Below are positions 39,051 to 51,062 of a DNA stretch of 63,226 bases, piece by piece. The stretch is from positions 1-63,226 of IMG/VR virus record IMGVR_UViG_3300048876_000002; one strand, written 5' to 3'. Under the pieces are notes generated by a model. The model searched no databases and had not been told where the DNA came from. It worked only from the letters and a program-made list of their open reading frames with translations. Positions within the stretch are counted from its first letter, which is position 1; each line of letters opens with the position of its first letter. The position numbers and the translations under genes are program-made. This DNA comes from a virus. Lineage: Duplodnaviria; Caudoviricetes.

Positions 39051-39142
39051 CCGAACCAGAACTTGCGATACCAACGCCGATGCGACTCCTCTTTCGATCT
39101 ATTGAGCAGCGTGATGACTATCGCTAAAAGAATGATCCACAT
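39047..39142 (-). CDS. 31-aa antisense membrane peptide (not in the ORF track)
   Basis: MWIILLAIVITLLNRSKEESHRRWYRKFWFG*; AAGGGAAG RBS. Confidence 0.4.
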   Translation of the reverse strand: MWIILLAIVITLLNRSKEESHRRWYRKFWFG

Positions 39143-40400
39143 GAAAAAACTTCCCTTATTGATTCTAGCATTCTGCTGCCTCTGCGGAGCGCAGATAAAT
39201 TATCCAATGATGCCCATGCCGCGCCAGCAGTTCACGAATAACGGCGCACCGCTCTCTGGCGGATTCCTTTATACGTGGGCGGCAGGAACAAGCACGCCAC
39301 TCGCCACTTACCACATCGACACACTAGGAAGTCTCACAGCCAATACCAACCCGGTAATCTTAGACGTGAACGGTTCGGCTGAAGTCCGACTACTTCCGCA
39401 AGCCTACAAGATGCAGTTGACCGATTCCAATAACGTGCAAATCTGGCAGATTGACCAGATTCAAGACTTCGGCCAACTAGCCCTCGCGTCATCCGTCCTC
39501 CTAAATCCTGCGTTCGCGAACCTGCAAACTATCGCCGGACCATTGGCCTTTACGACTCTCTCGCTGAATAGTGGAACCCCCCTGACAACGACAAACCAGA
39601 GCGGCACAGGTAGTTTGTGTCTTGTCACAAATTGCGCGTTGGTAACGCCGTCACTAAATGGGGTGAACATTGCCAACAGCCCAGGAACCTATCAGAATTT
39701 TGCAAACTCAGTTTCGCCGGGGACGATCCTTAATGATTTGGCTAATTTGGTAGCACCGGGCAACGCGGGAGTAAAAACCGCGCCAGCGGGAACGACTGGC
39801 GGAATTATGGGGATTGTGAGCGCGGGAGCTGGGACGACGGGCGTAGCTACAGTACAGGAATCCGGGCAATCGTTTTGCAACTTCGACGGGGCTGCAACTA
39901 CTGGCGATTATGTGCAAATGAGCAGCTCGGTTGCGGGAGACTGCACGGACGCTGGCGCAAACTATCCGACCTCCGGGCAGGTGATTGGAAGAGTTGAGCA
40001 GACTTCCGGTTCTCCGGCGCTTTTGGGACTGACTCTGTTTGGGCCGGAAATACAGGTTCCTACAACACTCGGCCTTGCCGCCATCACATCATGTGCAACA
40101 GGGCTTGGGGCCGGTTCTAGTCCCGCACTTACTTGCAGCAGCGCAAAAGACGGTGGCGGGTATATCTCGTTAACTACAGGCAGCAGCCCTAGCACTAATT
40201 CTCAAGTATGGATTATCTCTTTCGGCGCAACGCATACCGGGCACAACTGCTCGATCTCTCCAGCAAATGCTGCCGCAGTTAGTTCGGGCGTATTTATAGG
40301 CAGCAATAGCGTTACCCCGACCTTCTATATAGATTCTGGGGCAAGCGCCCTCACTGGAGCGACATTATATGCGTGGCAGTATACCTGTAATTTTTACTGA
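39141..40400 (+). CDS. tail fibre/adaptor with virion-attachment N-domain, preceded by a signal peptide
   Basis: MKKLPLLILAFCCLCGA|Q, then PRQQF..NG.PLSGG.LYT.AAGT.TP.ATY...NTNPVILD.NG.A. Confidence 0.75.
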   Translation: MKKLPLLILAFCCLCGAQINYPMMPMPRQQFTNNGAPLSGGFLYTWAAGTSTPLATYHIDTLGSLTANTNPVILDVNGSAEVRLLPQAYKMQLTDSNNVQIWQIDQIQDFGQLALASSVLLNPAFANLQTIAGPLAFTTLSLNSGTPLTTTNQSGTGSLCLVTNCALVTPSLNGVNIANSPGTYQNFANSVSPGTILNDLANLVAPGNAGVKTAPAGTTGGIMGIVSAGAGTTGVATVQESGQSFCNFDGAATTGDYVQMSSSVAGDCTDAGANYPTSGQVIGRVEQTSGSPALLGLTLFGPEIQVPTTLGLAAITSCATGLGAGSSPALTCSSAKDGGGYISLTTGSSPSTNSQVWIISFGATHTGHNCSISPANAAAVSSGVFIGSNSVTPTFYIDSGASALTGATLYAWQYTCNFY

Positions 40401-49700: not shown

Positions 49701-51062
49701 CGGGTGACGGACGGTACCAGTTTCGGGAGCGGTGCATCAATGGGAAACCTTACGTTCTCGGGCGGAGACAACGACATTATGGGATCGGTGAACGAAACTT
49801 ATCTCGGGATGAACTCTGGGCAGGTTTATATCTTCCACATGAGAGTCGCCTTGGATGGGAGTTATCAGGTTGTCAATACTGGCATTCCTGCGATTCACGT
49901 AGCGGGGCCGTTCGGCTTCAGCAAGGTTACCGATACGCGTTTCTATTACCTGGTCAGCGATACCCAGCTTTGGCAGGGCGACATCACCAGCGACACGACA
50001 TGGACACAGACGAAACTCTTTGATCTGACCTCAGGGAACGGGACGCAAACGCAATGCCCAGGTATAAATTGGACAACGTTTGGGACAGCAGGATCAGCAA
50101 GTATTATGGGGATTTCTCAAACGGATCAGCGCTTCGGTTGGAGTGTTGGTCACGGCGGCCAGGGTACGGCAGATTGGGCGTTCGTCTGGGATAAGACGCT
50201 CGGATGCTCAAGCATAAACAATGCCACCGGGCAATATTGGGCTTTCACCACTTCTGGTACTTCCTCAACACCCGCCTCCGGCACGGTCGTATCGACCGGA
50301 TGCTATGGCTCGAATGGCAGCGCAACTCCGCCGAAGGGCATCCACGATTCACAGATGTCGGGAGACGGGAATTACATGCTCTTTACCCTGCAGAATCCGC
50401 CGTGGACTGGGGGAGTGTGTGCAGGATCGACAATTGCTAACCAACAAACCGAGTGGCAGATTGGGACATCTGGTTCGCAGTGGAGCTATGGAGCGAACAC
50501 GATAGGGGTAGGCGGGGCGAACCTCGGCTCCCATAACAGCGTCGGCGTAACCAATGTTGTGGCTCCCTTTAATAACGGTCCACCAACGAACAACGGGCCG
50601 AACGTCCGCACTATGGCGAACGTCGCGTCATTTTCAGGATTCCAAGCAACCGGGATCATTCCGACGAATGTCATCATTGCGACCGATGAGCACTGTTCTT
50701 GGCCGCATCCTCTGAACGACGACAGTTACCCTTGGGTGTGCGCCAGCGACCTGACCTCAAGCGCTAACGGTGGTTCCCTGACACCCAACTACATGCAAAA
50801 TGTGATTTATGCGTGGTTCCCAAACAACCCGCTACCTCTTGGCCTTTCACCGAGACTGTTTGCCCACACGTTCAGTTGTGGTACGACACCTTCGACGTGC
50901 GCCGGTGGAGTAGGGGATTTCACTTTCGGCTCGCAGCAAGCTATCGGCTACACGACGGCAAAGGGCAACTATTTCTGTTGGGCGAGTACCCATTTGCAAT
51001 CTCTGGGCTCCGACAATCTAGGACATCCAAGAGCGGATGGATTTTGCGTAAGGCTGCAATAA
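46785..51062 (+). CDS. large secreted multi-domain carbohydrate-binding/hydrolase-like protein (1425 aa)
   Basis: MWKLLPILLLAVTATA|Q; lectin-like N-domain, Fn3-associated segment (PAGGTF..PQTV...YT.PI), possible GH barrel and C-terminal propeller; very Cys-rich. Confidence 0.65.
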   Translation: MWKLLPILLLAVTATAQTTSNIDDLGLGTPGWQAPCYFPSCNPGGVGTPTLGSVHQTFVNASPSLDGNSMLMTEVGTNYSNVMYHYTFGANNSATAFTGSYAVYIQTSLAPWQVFGMDMYQYIPGVRLMFGSQCAVAGNTAGLWSFFNQQPAPDGVWNVSTVPCPLTAATWWNISMTVHRVPGDTSCPGGLPAEHYDSLTQYTVPFAPVTYTLNLSYCSETTTFANDTGMQFDVSGSATGGTNTAFVDQQNYQASVTTVAPASSCTPAGGTFGLPQTVPCTNAAPVQCYNFTGAPKTNGTTGCLAGAHYTAPITAGNSTLYIVGGGTGYTDGPVTPYGFTITGLAVPGGRINSVQAPDPAGTNFAAYSSVLAQKNPLLTGQTLLVGVGNSGASILYLDSESGTGVCTPNNTAGFTLLDGIIASYPTNVLLVPATEGGTNINTPACVFSQAQANAVALSWTSGMTMLPSWYLNISGTYWQMQAGCYGGSGYSNACQLGTVEPVACYGTAGPCTDGTAVMTKIGANAPLQDVSCSANYKCGPASANCYTANGSAPIVINSGAFAPCSSTEVIQGEPIPWELPIVNYYEQQIAAFISHYNGNVNMGYMRPGSPAGGELSPLGISATTPSNAVWPFSGSSSAQKRATFLSWVSVLDAYVMAQTPTFPIFTDLNNAGNPSDANYADQEALLAYQDCFQGLGTNGYQVKDVLALEGVNAGCNLTTGLVGGTTTCGSGDFPWLFLTYPKNSCGQHMYHSLQTLTGMTPLYCNAATGTCPGITGPPGPLPTGTNCTLGFPGLISFLGTLANVGIGALNQKIIVDNLELYVNAPSNNTNAGTGCAGTPAWPASDILLALYPNYSGTVGAQTQYLSAPAGCTAPAAGCVKPVLSYDAAFAQYLGIGTALGGTAPTGLTVFGSGSVPYGPPLYSVSTISTANPGTIAPIFIATAPTSTTCLGMCQNSVAYDTTLNPVGTDIISRVTDGTSFGSGASMGNLTFSGGDNDIMGSVNETYLGMNSGQVYIFHMRVALDGSYQVVNTGIPAIHVAGPFGFSKVTDTRFYYLVSDTQLWQGDITSDTTWTQTKLFDLTSGNGTQTQCPGINWTTFGTAGSASIMGISQTDQRFGWSVGHGGQGTADWAFVWDKTLGCSSINNATGQYWAFTTSGTSSTPASGTVVSTGCYGSNGSATPPKGIHDSQMSGDGNYMLFTLQNPPWTGGVCAGSTIANQQTEWQIGTSGSQWSYGANTIGVGGANLGSHNSVGVTNVVAPFNNGPPTNNGPNVRTMANVASFSGFQATGIIPTNVIIATDEHCSWPHPLNDDSYPWVCASDLTSSANGGSLTPNYMQNVIYAWFPNNPLPLGLSPRLFAHTFSCGTTPSTCAGGVGDFTFGSQQAIGYTTAKGNYFCWASTHLQSLGSDNLGHPRADGFCVRLQ

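What the first reader, a model, noticed from the sequence alone, without database searches (positions are those of the whole stretch)
39141..51062. Entire tail/receptor-binding module appears Sec-exported: six consecutive signal-peptide-bearing fibre/spike genes, five Cys-rich
Seen: all six ORFs in the tailspike slot (after the ejection genes, before the holin-like genes) begin with a basic-hydrophobic leader, five ending A/S|Q: MKKLPLLILAFCCLCGA|Q, MLRKLLIILILSSPAFS|Q, MKRLLCVLLILAGSLSA|Q, MMRRLLILAILLLLGVAFS, MIKRLLLLYMLFASLSAFA|Q, MWKLLPILLLAVTATA|Q. I see no other TM anchor or lipobox. Cys occur in even numbers: 8 in mature 39141, 10 in 40418, 4 in 46383, versus 2 in the coat and none in the ejection proteins. 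Established: tailed virions assemble in the cytoplasm and their fibres normally lack signal peptides; disulfides form in the periplasm (DsbA/B); P22 tailspikes can attach to finished heads in vitro. Inference: receptor-binding appendages are exported, oxidatively folded in the periplasm and docked onto virions at or after lysis, i.e. a compartment-split assembly pathway. Alternatively they are a secreted adhesin/depolymerase complex acting on the host. I know of no characterised tailed phage with this arrangement.
Basis: partly seen in the sequence, partly recalled or inferred. Interest (0 to 1): 0.92.

Follow-up and report, generated by a model that had tools for sequence, protein, structure and literature searches.

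The report
Phage tailspikes carrying secretion signal peptides
A P22-like soil phage encodes its whole receptor-binding module, including a true P22-type tailspike, with bacterial export signals and paired cysteines, which suggests these parts mature outside the cytoplasm and join the virus only at lysis.

Summary
The window is a complete 63,226-bp P22-like podovirus genome. All six consecutive genes between the ejection genes and the small membrane-protein genes start with an n/h/c leader; five end A/S|Q. Only 2 other ORFs of about 95 look alike.

The leaders are not chance or mis-called starts. They recur in 96 of 119, 46 of 119 and 95 of 149 homologues of proteins 2, 1 and 4.

Protein 1 is a genuine virion part. 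Residues 27-118, straight after the leader, fold as the P22 tailspike head-binding domain (Foldseek E 4.5e-6). Homologues in cultured proteobacterial phages begin directly with that domain.

Leader-bearing relatives have even cysteine counts: 60 of 73 clusters against 27 of 59 leaderless.

The same arrangement occurs in a prophage of a Bryobacteraceae-family genome and in the cultured Tunturiibacter phage Tunturi_1, but not in Tunturi_4.

Best reading (0.6): Sec export, signal-peptidase cleavage, periplasmic disulfide formation, docking at lysis. Export itself is untested. SignalP was not available.

The parts
39141..40400 (+). Protein 1 (419 aa): tailspike/adaptor precursor. Leader = residues 1-17, predicted cut before Q18. 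P22-type head-binding domain = residues ~27-118 (nt 39219-39494). Second beta-rich domain = residues ~181-300. 8 Cys after the leader.
   Evidence: Leader heuristic. PDB sequence hit to 7eeq_A 'Tailspike head-binding domain', E 0.033. AF2 pLDDT above 90 for residues 30-118 and 181-300. Foldseek hits to 2vky, 1lkt, 8tvr, 9jg6 and 7eeq, E 4.5e-6 to 5e-4. The source database's own gene call includes the leader (P0121, 422 aa).
40418..42457 (+). Protein 2 (679 aa): fibre/spike precursor. Leader = residues 1-17, cut before Q18. Conserved N-terminal module 18-135. 10 Cys in 5 close pairs.
   Evidence: PHROG phrog_4636 'tail spike protein' 3e-9 and phrog_6002 'virion structural protein' 7.8e-10. Met1-to-Met1 alignment with P0040. 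96 of 119 homologues bear a leader. The database call P0001 (513 aa) starts at residue 167 and is probably truncated.
42459..42920 (+). Protein 3 (153 aa): small leader-bearing protein. Leader 1-17, cut before Q18. No Cys after the leader. Role unknown.
   Evidence: 74% identical to the leader-bearing ORF that follows the protein-2 homologue in viral contig L002. No significant Pfam or PHROG family.
42921..46382 (+). Protein 4 (1153 aa): mosaic spike precursor. Leader 1-19, followed by F, not Q. Conserved N-terminal module ~20-190. Central module ~300-700, probably a pectate-lyase-like beta-helix. 26 Cys.
   Evidence: 624 representative homologues at E<=0.001. 95 of 149 listed bear a leader. 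14 of 67 central-module homologues hit PF12708. Atlas gives leads only, score 0.83. The AF2 model was unusable, pLDDT 38.
46383..46781 (+). Protein 5 (132 aa): small leader-bearing protein. Leader 1-19, cut before Q20. 4 Cys in two close pairs. Possibly Ig/FN3-like.
   Evidence: Pfam fn3 E 0.0084 at 16.7 bits, below the 25-bit cut-off.
46785..51062 (+). Protein 6 (1425 aa): largest fibre-like precursor. Leader 1-16, cut before Q17. 42 Cys.
   Evidence: 7 non-self homologues. By eye, 5 of the 7 start with a basic-hydrophobic leader, and 3 share the module right after it. One is named from a Candidatus Sulfotelmatobacter MAG. No Pfam, PHROG, PDB or Atlas match.
32807..34387 (+). Tail hub (P22 gp10 / 'head closure Hc3'-like): the expected docking partner of the protein 1 head-binding domain.
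   Evidence: phrog_578, 3.1e-75. That it is the docking partner is inferred from P22 structures matched (8tvr, 8u10, 8eb7).
35644..39050 (+). Three Cys-free ejection-like proteins immediately upstream of the leader-bearing block.
   Evidence: The first hits phrog_598 'DNA ejection', 9.2e-30; the other two have no family. All three have 0 Cys. The same order is seen in the G007 prophage and in L044.
51116..51930 (+). Two small membrane proteins (96 and 113 aa) just downstream. Holin-like by hydrophobic segments only.
   Evidence: 1 and 3 hydrophobic windows. No Pfam or PHROG family.

Best explanation
The six genes are the receptor-binding module (one P22-type tailspike/adaptor plus further spikes, fibres and two small partners) of a P22-like podovirus whose relatives live in Acidobacteriota.

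Proposed mechanism:
1. Each protein is made as a precursor with a cleavable Sec / signal-peptidase-I type leader.
2. The precursors are exported across the inner membrane.
3. The leader is cut. In five of six this exposes an N-terminal Gln, which may cyclise to pyroglutamate.
4. The many paired cysteines are oxidised in the periplasm.
5. The mature trimers meet the DNA-filled, hub-closed heads made in the cytoplasm only when the inner membrane is breached at lysis. Protein 1 then docks on the gp10-like hub through its head-binding domain.

Shown here:
- Leaders are present and conserved.
- Protein 1 has the head-binding fold directly behind its leader.
- Cysteine parity tracks the leader.
- The trait recurs in related prophages and in one cultured phage.

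Inferred:
- Export, the cleavage site, periplasmic oxidation, and the time and place of docking.
- That proteins 2-6 are virion-borne. Only protein 2 has family-level support for this.
For: 1. The leaders are real and selected.
- All six pass the n/h/c test, against 2 of the other ~89 ORFs.
- Leaders occur in 96 of 119 protein-2 homologues and 46 of 119 protein-1 homologues, and in 95 of 149 protein-4 homologues.
- A small residue followed by Gln sits at the end of the hydrophobic run in 129 of 142 leaders, against 12.4% of control windows.

2. Protein 1 is a virion part.
- Foldseek matches the P22 tailspike head-binding domain (2vky 4.5e-6; 1lkt; in-situ hub complexes 8tvr, 8u10, 8eb7; Pam1 7eeq; Sf6 7sg7), all with probability 1.00.
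- The gene sits in the P22 tailspike slot.

3. The leader is an add-on.
- Leaderless homologues start 7-12 residues before the conserved motif. An example is the annotated tail spike of Xanthomonas phage PBR31.
- Leader-bearing homologues carry 25-38 residues there. A cut before Gln would leave an N-terminus of about the same length as in the leaderless forms.

4. The trait is heritable. On a tree of the head-binding domain, leader presence needs only 3 changes among 71 rows. The shuffled mean is 23.5, and 0 of 500 shuffles were as low.

5. There is a disulfide signature.
- 44 of 46 leader-bearing protein-1 homologues have an even Cys count, against 35 of 73 leaderless ones. Median Cys is 1.85% against 0.47%.
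- After clustering, 60 of 73 leader-bearing clusters are even, against 27 of 59 leaderless (Fisher 1.6e-5).
- Cys at aligned positions 30 and 79 of the head-binding domain co-occur in the same 5 of 71 sequences. These sit at three places on the tree.

6. The trait appears in other settings.
- A P22-like prophage in genome G007 (same family as a Bryobacteraceae MAG) has a single 636-aa tailspike after its ejection genes, with leader plus head-binding motif.
- The close relative L044 shows the same arrangement.
- Cultured Tunturiibacter phage Tunturi_1 has leaders on gp12, gp13, gp16 and gp17, and by eye on gp14 'tail spike protein'.

7. The candidate host clade fits.
- 17 of 38 SP-like N-termini in a 320-kb sample of G089 have the small-residue-Gln junction.
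- Glutaminyl cyclase PF05096 is present in 17 of 41 genomes of that family, including G001 and G007.
Against: - No dedicated predictor (SignalP, DeepTMHMM) and no experiment was available. The leader calls rest on my own heuristic.
- I know of no characterised tailed phage that adds its tailspikes outside the cytoplasm. Docking after lysis risks dilution.
- The trait is not obligatory for the host phylum. In the cultured siphovirus Tunturi_4, 0 of 13 tail-region proteins examined were flagged, and they are Cys-poor.
- Protein 1 has Met at residues 23, 24 and 26, just before the head-binding domain, so a leaderless isoform is conceivable. No Shine-Dalgarno-like site lies 5-10 nt upstream. That Met is absent from L044 and from about two thirds of the leader-bearing homologues aligned (about 20 of 31 by eye).
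- Protein 3 has no Cys after its leader, and protein 4 lacks the Gln.
- No phage-encoded Dsb, signal peptidase, endolysin or spanin family was recognised among the 46 window ORFs scanned, so the lysis step is uncharacterised.
- Virion membership of proteins 3-6 is not shown.
- Many homologues come from automatic gene calls on metagenomes, so some N-termini are wrong in both directions.
Confidence: 0.6

Rival explanations
1. Dual use. The exported pool acts on the producing cell's own envelope, for example by destroying or masking the receptor or EPS, excluding superinfection or easing release. The copies built into virions come from a cytoplasmic, leaderless or non-exported fraction, through internal initiation or inefficient targeting.
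For: Protein 1 has Met 23, 24 and 26 just before the head-binding domain. A Met at the matching position occurs in about 10 of 32 leader-bearing homologues by eye. The central module of protein 4 is probably a pectate-lyase-like depolymerase. Depolymerases acting from the periplasm would make biological sense.
Against: No Shine-Dalgarno-like site at the right distance. The Met is missing in L044 and in many close homologues. Protein 2 has no Met between the leader and its conserved module. Even-Cys selection tracks the leader, which argues that the functional form is the oxidised, exported one.
Confidence: 0.15
2. Uncleaved signal-anchor. The leader is a type II membrane anchor that holds the spikes on the periplasmic face of the inner membrane until lysis, or until a late cleavage. 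Membrane-tethered spikes capture particles when the membrane is breached.
For: The hydrophobic runs are strongly hydrophobic, with mean Kyte-Doolittle up to 2.99 in protein 4. AF2 models the leaders as helices. Phage proteins with non-standard signal behaviour exist, for example the SAR endolysins (recalled) and T4 RI (listing only, PMC8385771).
Against: The runs are short: 12-16 residues, not about 20. They are followed by canonical small -3/-1 residues and a Gln that is conserved far above background (129 of 142 against 12.4%). A cut there reproduces the N-terminal length of leaderless tailspikes.
Confidence: 0.1
3. Secreted cargo, not virion parts. The block is a set of exported adhesins or depolymerases (morons) carried in the tail region, and the true receptor-binding protein is elsewhere or absent.
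For: Distant homologues of protein 2 are bacterial proteins with leaders, named 'tail fiber domain-containing protein' or 'trimeric autotransporter adhesin' in Bacteroidota genomes. Proteins 3, 5 and 6 have no virion-family hit. The P. gingivalis phage paper read its Q-rule signal-peptide genes as envelope modifiers (PMC10367356, passages read).
Against: Protein 1 has the P22 head-binding fold. Protein 2 hits tail-spike and virion-structural PHROGs. No other tailspike candidate was found among the 46 window ORFs scanned against Pfam or PHROGs. In the G007 prophage the leader-bearing spike is the only gene in the slot. Promoter-like and terminator-like sites are no more frequent than in shuffles, and the genes abut the structural operon.
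Confidence: 0.08
4. Not an export signal at all. The hydrophobic N-terminus is a structural element, for example one buried in the hub or in a trimer, or an artefact of start-codon choice.
For: The source database called protein 2 from residue 167, without the leader (P0001).
Against: The leader sequences diverge freely while keeping n/h/c character. In protein 2 against P0040, 6 of the first 17 residues are identical against 19 of the next 20. The same leader type precedes at least four unrelated N-terminal modules and also host-type proteins. P22-type head-binding domains in cultured phages have no such segment. The genes are packed stop-to-start at the leader ATGs.
Confidence: 0.05

Closest known systems
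Phage P22 gp9 tailspike (also Sf6, cyanophage Pam1 and Pan3 tailspikes)
   Same: Protein 1 sits in the same genomic slot after the ejection genes. Its N-terminal domain has the head-binding fold that docks on the gp4/gp10 hub. Recalled: P22 heads lacking spikes are stable and can be completed with spikes in vitro, which makes late docking biochemically plausible.
   Different: The solved tailspikes and the cultured-phage homologues start directly with the domain. Here 17 leader residues plus a short linker precede it. Protein 1 has no recognised beta-helix. Pfam Head_binding does not match by sequence. Five further leader-bearing genes follow.
Tunturiibacter phage Tunturi_1 (PP887698), a cultured podovirus of Acidobacteriota
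   Same: After its 'tail protein' comes a block of large Cys-rich proteins (20, 10, 21 and 32 Cys) with the same kind of leader ending in Ala-Gln. These include proteins annotated 'tail spike protein' and 'virion structural protein', and the lysis genes follow.
   Different: The head and packaging genes and the gene order are different, so it is not a P22-like layout. The paper describing it has no occurrence of 'signal peptide' or 'tail fiber' in its main text. Its supplements could not be seen.
Filamentous phage (Ff) pIII/pVIII
   Same: Recalled, not tested here: a receptor-binding virion protein made with a Sec signal peptide, oxidised by the host Dsb system in the periplasm, and joined to the particle outside the cytoplasm. 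It works alike.
   Different: Ff phages assemble by extrusion through the envelope without lysis. Here the particle is a tailed, cytoplasmically packaged capsid. There is no sequence relation.
Signal-peptide genes obeying the 'Bacteroidetes Q-rule' in Porphyromonas gingivalis phages (PMC10367356; Q-rule PMC5837995)
   Same: Phage genes whose predicted signal-peptidase-I cut exposes an N-terminal Gln (passages read).
   Different: There they are five genes of unknown function, read as modifiers of the host envelope and not as tail fibres. The host phylum differs. In the Q-rule paper, a word search found no occurrence of 'Acidobacteria', and its abstract start restricts the rule to Bacteroidetes.
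Other phage proteins with Sec-type signals (SAR endolysins, T4 antiholin RI, spanins, lambda Lom/Bor)
   Same: They show that phages routinely use host export for lysis and lysogenic-conversion proteins (recalled; PMC8385771 seen in a listing only).
   Different: None of these is a virion receptor-binding protein.

Membership tests
P22-type tailspike (head-binding domain) | N-terminal domain with the P22 gp9 head-binding fold | tested here: met
   AF2 pLDDT above 90 over residues 30-118. Foldseek hits to 2vky, 1lkt, 8tvr, 9jg6 and 7eeq, E 4.5e-6 to 4e-5, probability 1.00. Weak sequence hit to 7eeq_A, E 0.033.
P22-type tailspike (head-binding domain) | Sequence match to Pfam Head_binding (PF09008) | tested here: not met
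   No Pfam family at E<=0.1 for protein 1.
P22-type tailspike (head-binding domain) | Gene follows the ejection genes of a P22-like head/hub module | tested here: met
   P22_portal, P22 coat, Hc3/gp10-like hub and a DNA-ejection PHROG lie upstream. The same order occurs in G007 and L044.
P22-type tailspike (head-binding domain) | C-terminal right-handed beta-helix receptor-cleaving domain | tested here: not met
   Protein 1 has no beta-helix Pfam hit. The model shows a beta-rich domain at 181-300 and a low-confidence tail. Several homologues do carry Pectate_lyase_3 or Beta_helix.
Sec / signal peptidase I signal peptide | Basic n-region, hydrophobic h-region of about 7-15 residues, small residues at -3/-1 | tested here: met
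   All six pass. By eye the -3/-1 pairs are C/A, A/S, L/A, A/S, A/A and A/A, read.
Sec / signal peptidase I signal peptide | Call by a trained predictor (SignalP, DeepTMHMM) | not testable with these tools
Sec / signal peptidase I signal peptide | Demonstrated export and cleavage | not testable with these tools
   This needs proteomics or reporter fusions.
Lipoprotein (signal peptidase II) signal | Lipobox with an invariant Cys at +1 | tested here: not met
   No L-[AST]-[GAS]-C at the end of any of the six leaders, by eye. The three Cys in the protein 1 leader are not preceded by G/A/S.
Tat signal peptide | Twin-arginine motif and a weakly hydrophobic h-region | tested here: not met
   Only protein 4 has RR. 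The h-regions are strongly hydrophobic, mean Kyte-Doolittle 2.2-3.0.
Q-rule type secretory proteins (N-terminal Gln, pyroglutamate) | Gln at +1 of the predicted cut, and glutaminyl cyclase in the host | tested here: inconclusive
   5 of 6 here have Gln at +1. 129 of 142 homologue leaders have the junction, as do 17 of 38 SP-like N-termini in the G089 sample. PF05096 is present in 17 of 41 family genomes. The true host of this phage and any actual cyclisation are unknown.
Moron-type secreted cargo (lambda Lom/Bor-like) | Own promoter and terminator, unrelated to virion proteins | tested here: not met
   Promoter-like and terminator-like sites do not exceed shuffles. The genes abut each other. 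Proteins 1 and 2 have tailspike relations.

The most novel reading that the evidence does not exclude
In a broad set of phages of Acidobacteriota, and possibly Bacteroidota, the receptor-binding apparatus is matured like a bacterial surface protein. It is exported by Sec, cut by signal peptidase I, disulfide-bonded by the host Dsb system, and perhaps capped with pyroglutamate. The last step of tailed-virion assembly, spike docking onto the hub, therefore takes place outside the cytoplasm, at or after inner-membrane breach. Infectivity would then depend on host secretion and oxidative-folding machinery. That would be a compartment-split assembly pathway not described for any tailed phage.
Probability: 0.5. 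Interest if true: 0.93.

Novelty: new variant of a known kind. Interest (0 to 1): 0.86.

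Why it matters
Tailed-phage assembly is taught as a wholly cytoplasmic process. A canonical P22-type tailspike carrying a secretion signal challenges that, and makes the question directly testable.

If the spikes are exported, then:
- Host Sec, signal peptidase, Dsb and perhaps glutaminyl cyclase become phage dependency factors.
- Disulfide-stabilised receptor-binding proteins may explain particle stability in acidic soils.
- Exported depolymerases could act on the producer's own envelope before release.

It also matters for annotation. Gene callers and virome pipelines may truncate such genes or label them 'secreted hypothetical'; protein 2 was called without its first 166 residues in the source database.

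A cultured system exists for testing: phage Tunturi_1 on Tunturiibacter shows the same trait.

Tried and rejected
**Searches and models that gave nothing**
- Pfam on the six proteins: nothing above cut-off.
- PHROGs: only protein 2 hit.
- PDB sequence searches on proteins 2, 4 and 6: nothing meaningful.
- Profile searches of A2 and A3 against PDB: 0 hits, and then two hits at E 0.17-0.18.
- Atlas: no usable hit for protein 6. For protein 4 there were only sub-0.9 leads.
- AF2 of protein 4 on the 104-row mosaic alignment failed, mean pLDDT 38. I ran no fold search on it.
- The viral-contig scan with protein 1 found no confirmed relative.
- Megablast of the block against cultured phages gave no match.

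**Checks that were weak or negative**
- Lysis genes. Pfam and PHROGs on 10 downstream or other ORFs gave only a weak Phd/YefM hit, DUF6445 and one unknown-function PHROG. The lysis mechanism stays open.
- Phage-borne Dsb, signal peptidase or cyclase. None was found among the 46 window ORFs scanned in all. Not every ORF was scanned.
- My ungapped 'leader versus mature identity' comparison was too crude: n = 3, 23 and 27, with small differences. I do not rely on it. The single BLASTP makes the point better.
- The promoter/terminator scan showed no excess. It is a weak test for a non-model host.

**Considered and rejected**
- Tat signal: only one RR, and the h-regions are too hydrophobic.
- Lipoprotein signal: no lipobox.
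- PEP-CTERM or T9SS C-terminal sorting signals: none seen by eye in the C-termini printed. This was not tested with models.

**Literature**
- Six searches found no paper describing Sec leaders on tailed-phage tailspikes. That holds only for the held library.
- Supplements are closed. Supplementary Data 4 of PMC10367356 and the annotation tables of PMC11924767 might bear on this.

Full report
**1. What the window is**

The window is the whole record: one contig of 63,226 bp with no tRNA genes. It encodes a P22-like head and hub module.
- Large terminase at 19097-20695.
- Portal at 25456-27750 (Pfam P22_portal, 8.7e-146).
- Scaffold at 28473-29483.
- P22-type coat at 29522-30748.
- An Hc3/gp10-like hub protein at 32807-34387 (phrog_578, 3.1e-75).
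- Three Cys-free proteins at 35644-39050. The first hits a 'DNA ejection' PHROG.

The six genes of the finding follow on the same strand. Gaps between them are 17, 1, 0, 0 and 3 nt. After them come small proteins with 1-3 hydrophobic segments and no family hits.

**2.

I used a simple n/h/c test: K/R and no D/E before an uncharged hydrophobic run of at least 9 residues, followed by small residues at -3/-1. All six pass.
- In a greedy set of 95 ORFs for the genome, four of the six were flagged from their first start codon.
- Only two further ORFs were flagged: 3562-4122 on the minus strand, and 54899-55438.

Cys counts after the leader are 8, 10, 0, 26, 4 and 42. All are even, and most lie in close pairs, for example 32/38, 201/213, 336/344, 539/542 and 632/676 in protein 2. 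The coat has 2 Cys and the ejection-like proteins have 0.

The heuristic is not SignalP. As a sanity check, it flagged 38 of 295 ORFs (13%) in a 320-kb sample of a bacterial genome. To my recollection that is an ordinary share for a diderm bacterium.

**3. The leaders are conserved, so they are neither chance nor wrong starts**

*Protein 2.*
- It has 195 homologues at E<=0.001. Of the 119 non-self proteins listed, 96 carry a leader.
- Its first 135 residues align Met1-to-Met1 with P0040 (62% identity over 137 alignment columns, E 2e-41).
- The leader is divergent (6 of 17 identical), while the next 20 residues are nearly identical (19 of 20). Signal peptides typically behave this way.
- The source database's own call for this gene (P0001, 513 aa, starting at residue 167) is therefore probably truncated.

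*Protein 4.*
- It has 624 representative homologues. 95 of the 149 listed are flagged, and several of the 54 unflagged are visible heuristic misses.

*Protein 6.*
- It has 7 non-self homologues. By eye, 5 start with a leader.

*Protein 3.*
- It is 74% identical to the leader-bearing ORF that follows the protein-2 homologue in contig L002.

*The junction.*
- Across 142 leader-bearing homologues, a small residue followed by Gln sits at the end of the hydrophobic run in 129. In control windows from the same proteins the figure is 12.4%.

**4. Protein 1 is a real tailspike, and the leader is an add-on**

- Residues 27-82 give a weak sequence hit to PDB 7eeq_A, 'Tailspike head-binding domain' (E 0.033).
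- An AlphaFold2 model built on 71 homologues has pLDDT above 90 for residues 30-118 and 181-300.
- Foldseek against the PDB returns the P22 tailspike head-binding domain. Hits include 2vky (4.5e-6), 1lkt, the in-situ hub-spike complexes 8tvr, 8u10 and 8eb7, Sf6 7sg7, and cyanophages Pam1 and Pan3, all with probability 1.00.
- So the first gene after the ejection genes is what the P22 layout predicts, except for its leader.

The alignment shows the difference plainly.
- 39 leaderless homologues begin 7-12 residues before the conserved P-K/R-x-Q-F stretch. Many carry pectate-lyase-like beta-helix Pfam domains.
- 32 homologues, including the window's, carry 25-38 residues there: a leader, usually ending Ala-Gln, plus a short linker.
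- A cut before the Gln would leave an N-terminus about as long as in the leaderless proteins.

Cultured phages with this domain match only from query residue 16-35 onward. I read two of them. The annotated tail spike of Xanthomonas phage PBR31 and a 'tail collar' protein of MW202483.1 both start directly with the domain.

On a maximum-likelihood tree of the domain alone (91 columns, so many forks are unresolved), leader presence needs only 3 changes among 71 rows. The shuffled mean is 23.5, and 0 of 500 shuffles were as low. The leader is a stable, inherited trait of two large groups.

**5. The cysteines behave as disulfide partners only where a leader is present**

- Among protein-1 homologues, 44 of 46 leader-bearing proteins have an even Cys count after the leader, against 35 of 73 leaderless ones.
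- Median Cys content is 1.85% against 0.47% (Mann-Whitney p 1e-11).
- For protein-2 homologues the counts are 85 of 96 against 14 of 23. For protein-4 homologues they are 73 of 95 against 28 of 54.
- I pooled all 394 fetched homologues and collapsed them to 132 clusters (at least 40% identity over at least 60% of the shorter protein). That gives 60 of 73 even for leader-bearing representatives (binomial p 2e-8) and 27 of 59 for the rest (p 0.6). Fisher's test gives 1.6e-5.
- Inside the head-binding domain, Cys at aligned positions 30 and 79 occur together in the same 5 of 71 sequences and in no other. Those five sit at three places on the tree.
- The cleavage site was chosen without regard to Cys.
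- Weaknesses: the leaderless class includes some truncated or mis-called proteins, and parity is indirect evidence.

**6. Host and relatives**

Names attached to homologues point to Acidobacteriota.
- A Terriglobales MAG (P0142).
- A Candidatus Sulfotelmatobacter MAG (P0243).
- A Bryobacteraceae MAG (L009).

In 151 genomes of that MAG's family, 10 have a match to protein 1. One of them, G007, carries a P22-like prophage with terminase, portal, scaffold, coat, hub and three ejection-like genes. A single 636-aa ORF follows, with a leader and the head-binding motif. There the leader-bearing spike is the only candidate in the slot.

Contig L044 is a 63.6-kb viral contig whose hub protein is 64% identical to the window's. 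It has the same order: a leader plus head-binding ORF, then a 1088-aa leader-bearing ORF. A distant, GC-rich relative (L046, 26%) shows no such leaders.

Other viral contigs share modules with protein 2. These include ones with baseplate-like or tape-measure-like contexts (L003-L007). They also have large Cys-rich ORFs with leaders.

Two cultured Acidobacteriota phages were read from their public records; the accessions came from PMC11924767.
- In podovirus Tunturi_1, gp12, gp13, gp16 and gp17 were flagged, out of 20 CDS examined. By eye, gp14 'tail spike protein' also has a leader behind a longer call. Their Cys counts are 20, 10, 2, 32 and 21.
- In siphovirus Tunturi_4, 0 of 13 tail-region proteins were flagged.

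So the trait is widespread but not universal in phages of this phylum.

**7. A side observation that fits**

- In a 16 x 20 kb sample of host-family genome G089, 17 of 38 SP-like N-termini have the small-residue-Gln junction.
- Glutaminyl cyclase (PF05096) is found in 17 of 41 genomes of the family, including G001 and G007. It also rings in 3 of 14 control genomes, so it is not specific.
- This resembles the 'Q-rule' described for Bacteroidetes (PMC5837995; abstract start seen). A word search of that paper found no occurrence of 'Acidobacteria'.

**8. How it most likely works**

Shown:
- Leaders of Sec / signal-peptidase-I type by composition.
- Their conservation.
- A virion-docking domain directly behind one of them.
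- Disulfide-like Cys statistics tied to the leader.

Inferred:
1. The precursors are exported.
2. They are cut, which exposes Gln.
3. They are oxidised and trimerised in the periplasm.
4. Heads are packaged and closed by the hub in the cytoplasm.
5. Spikes dock when the membrane proteins encoded downstream breach the inner membrane, or in the lysate.

Recalled, not tested here: P22 heads lacking tailspikes are stable and can be made infectious by adding spikes in vitro. That removes the main biochemical objection.

How proteins 2-6 attach is unknown.
- Proteins 1, 2, 4 and 6 each have a conserved module right after the leader and variable distal parts. This is the usual architecture of exchangeable receptor-binding proteins.
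- Protein 1 lacks a beta-helix. It may serve as the adaptor for the others. That is a guess.

**9. What speaks against it, and the rivals**

- No predictor and no experiment was available.
- No precedent for such a pathway in tailed phages is known to me or was found in the searches.
- Docking outside the cytoplasm risks dilution.
- Tunturi_4 does without leaders.
- Protein 1 has Met 23, 24 and 26 just ahead of the domain, so a leaderless isoform could exist. No Shine-Dalgarno-like site lies at the right distance. The Met is not conserved in L044 or in many homologues.

The rivals are laid out with their odds in the rival section: a dual-use pool, an uncleaved signal anchor, secreted cargo, and a non-export hydrophobic segment.

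**10. Comparison with what is known, and novelty**

Membership as a P22-type tailspike is met for fold and position. It is not met for Pfam sequence membership or for a beta-helix (see the membership table).

The nearest thing in print that I found is a statement that five unknown genes of P. gingivalis phages have signal peptides obeying the Q-rule. The authors read them as envelope modifiers (PMC10367356, passages read).

The paper on the Tunturi phages does not mention signal peptides or tail fibres in its main text. Its supplements could not be seen.

Six literature searches returned nothing on Sec leaders on tailed-phage spikes. That is a statement about the held library only.

I rate the feature a new variant of a known kind: tailspikes and fibres with secretion leaders. 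The inferred assembly pathway would be categorically new if shown.

**11. Verdict**

- Observation: confirmed.
- Interpretation: partly supported. All testable sequence predictions were met. Export and late docking remain untested.
- Confidence in the export-and-dock model: 0.6.
- Interest: 0.86.
- The question is directly testable in an existing culture system.

Noticed in passing
window 3562-4122 (-): A 186-aa ORF with the same kind of leader (ending Gly-Gln) and 14 Cys, far from the tail block. No Pfam or PHROG family. It may be another exported phage protein.
   Followed up: partly
window 54899-55438 (+): A 179-aa ORF with a basic N-terminus, a hydrophobic run and a Cys shortly after it. 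It looks lipoprotein- or spanin-like by eye, with no family hit.
   Followed up: partly
window 40418-42457 (+): The source database's gene call for protein 2 (P0001, 513 aa) starts at residue 167 and drops the leader and a conserved N-terminal module. Homologues support the 679-aa reading.
   Followed up: yes
window 34608-35063 and 35060-35647 (+): A GNAT acetyltransferase (PF00583, 9.9e-10) and a DUF6445 protein sit inside the tail module, between the hub and the ejection genes. L044 has ORFs of like size at the same place. Tunturi_1 also has an acetyltransferase next to a tail-fibre gene.
   Followed up: no
window 12164-13180, 13389-14339 (+) and 59140-59652 (-): Three DNA methyltransferase-like genes: D12 N6-adenine, N6/N4, and a short C5-cytosine fragment hit.
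   Followed up: no
window 56839-57786 (-) and 58004-59080 (+): A Cys-rich N-terminus with a partial IS1-transposase hit (5.5e-6), and a P63C-domain protein (2.6e-25). No integrase family turned up among the ORFs scanned.
   Followed up: no
window 52260-52541 (+): A weak Phd/YefM antitoxin hit (E 8e-4, below the cut-off) among the small genes after the tail block.
   Followed up: no
G089:C3 sample (L024-L039); family of G001: Bacterial proteins of the candidate host family often have a small residue followed by Gln at the end of their signal-like leaders (17 of 38). 17 of 41 genomes have glutaminyl cyclase PF05096. This hints at a partial 'Q-rule' outside Bacteroidota.
   Followed up: partly
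L008 (IMG/VR contig, 6.4 kb): A short contig whose leader sequences look Bacteroidota-like to me has two or three consecutive leader-bearing ORFs ending Gly-Gln, upstream of an ORF I took by eye for a lysozyme (no family search). The trait may extend beyond Acidobacteriota phages.
   Followed up: no
L015, L020, L021 (G061:C20:497218-501327): One bacterial genome has a 1469-aa open frame with eight tandem copies of a segment similar to residues ~190-360 of protein 1. So this beta-rich domain also occurs as a repeat in cellular proteins.
   Followed up: no
window, the six proteins: Extreme composition. K+R is about 2% and D+E about 4%, with T, S, G, N and A together about 50-60%. This is unlike the head proteins of the same phage.
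   Followed up: no
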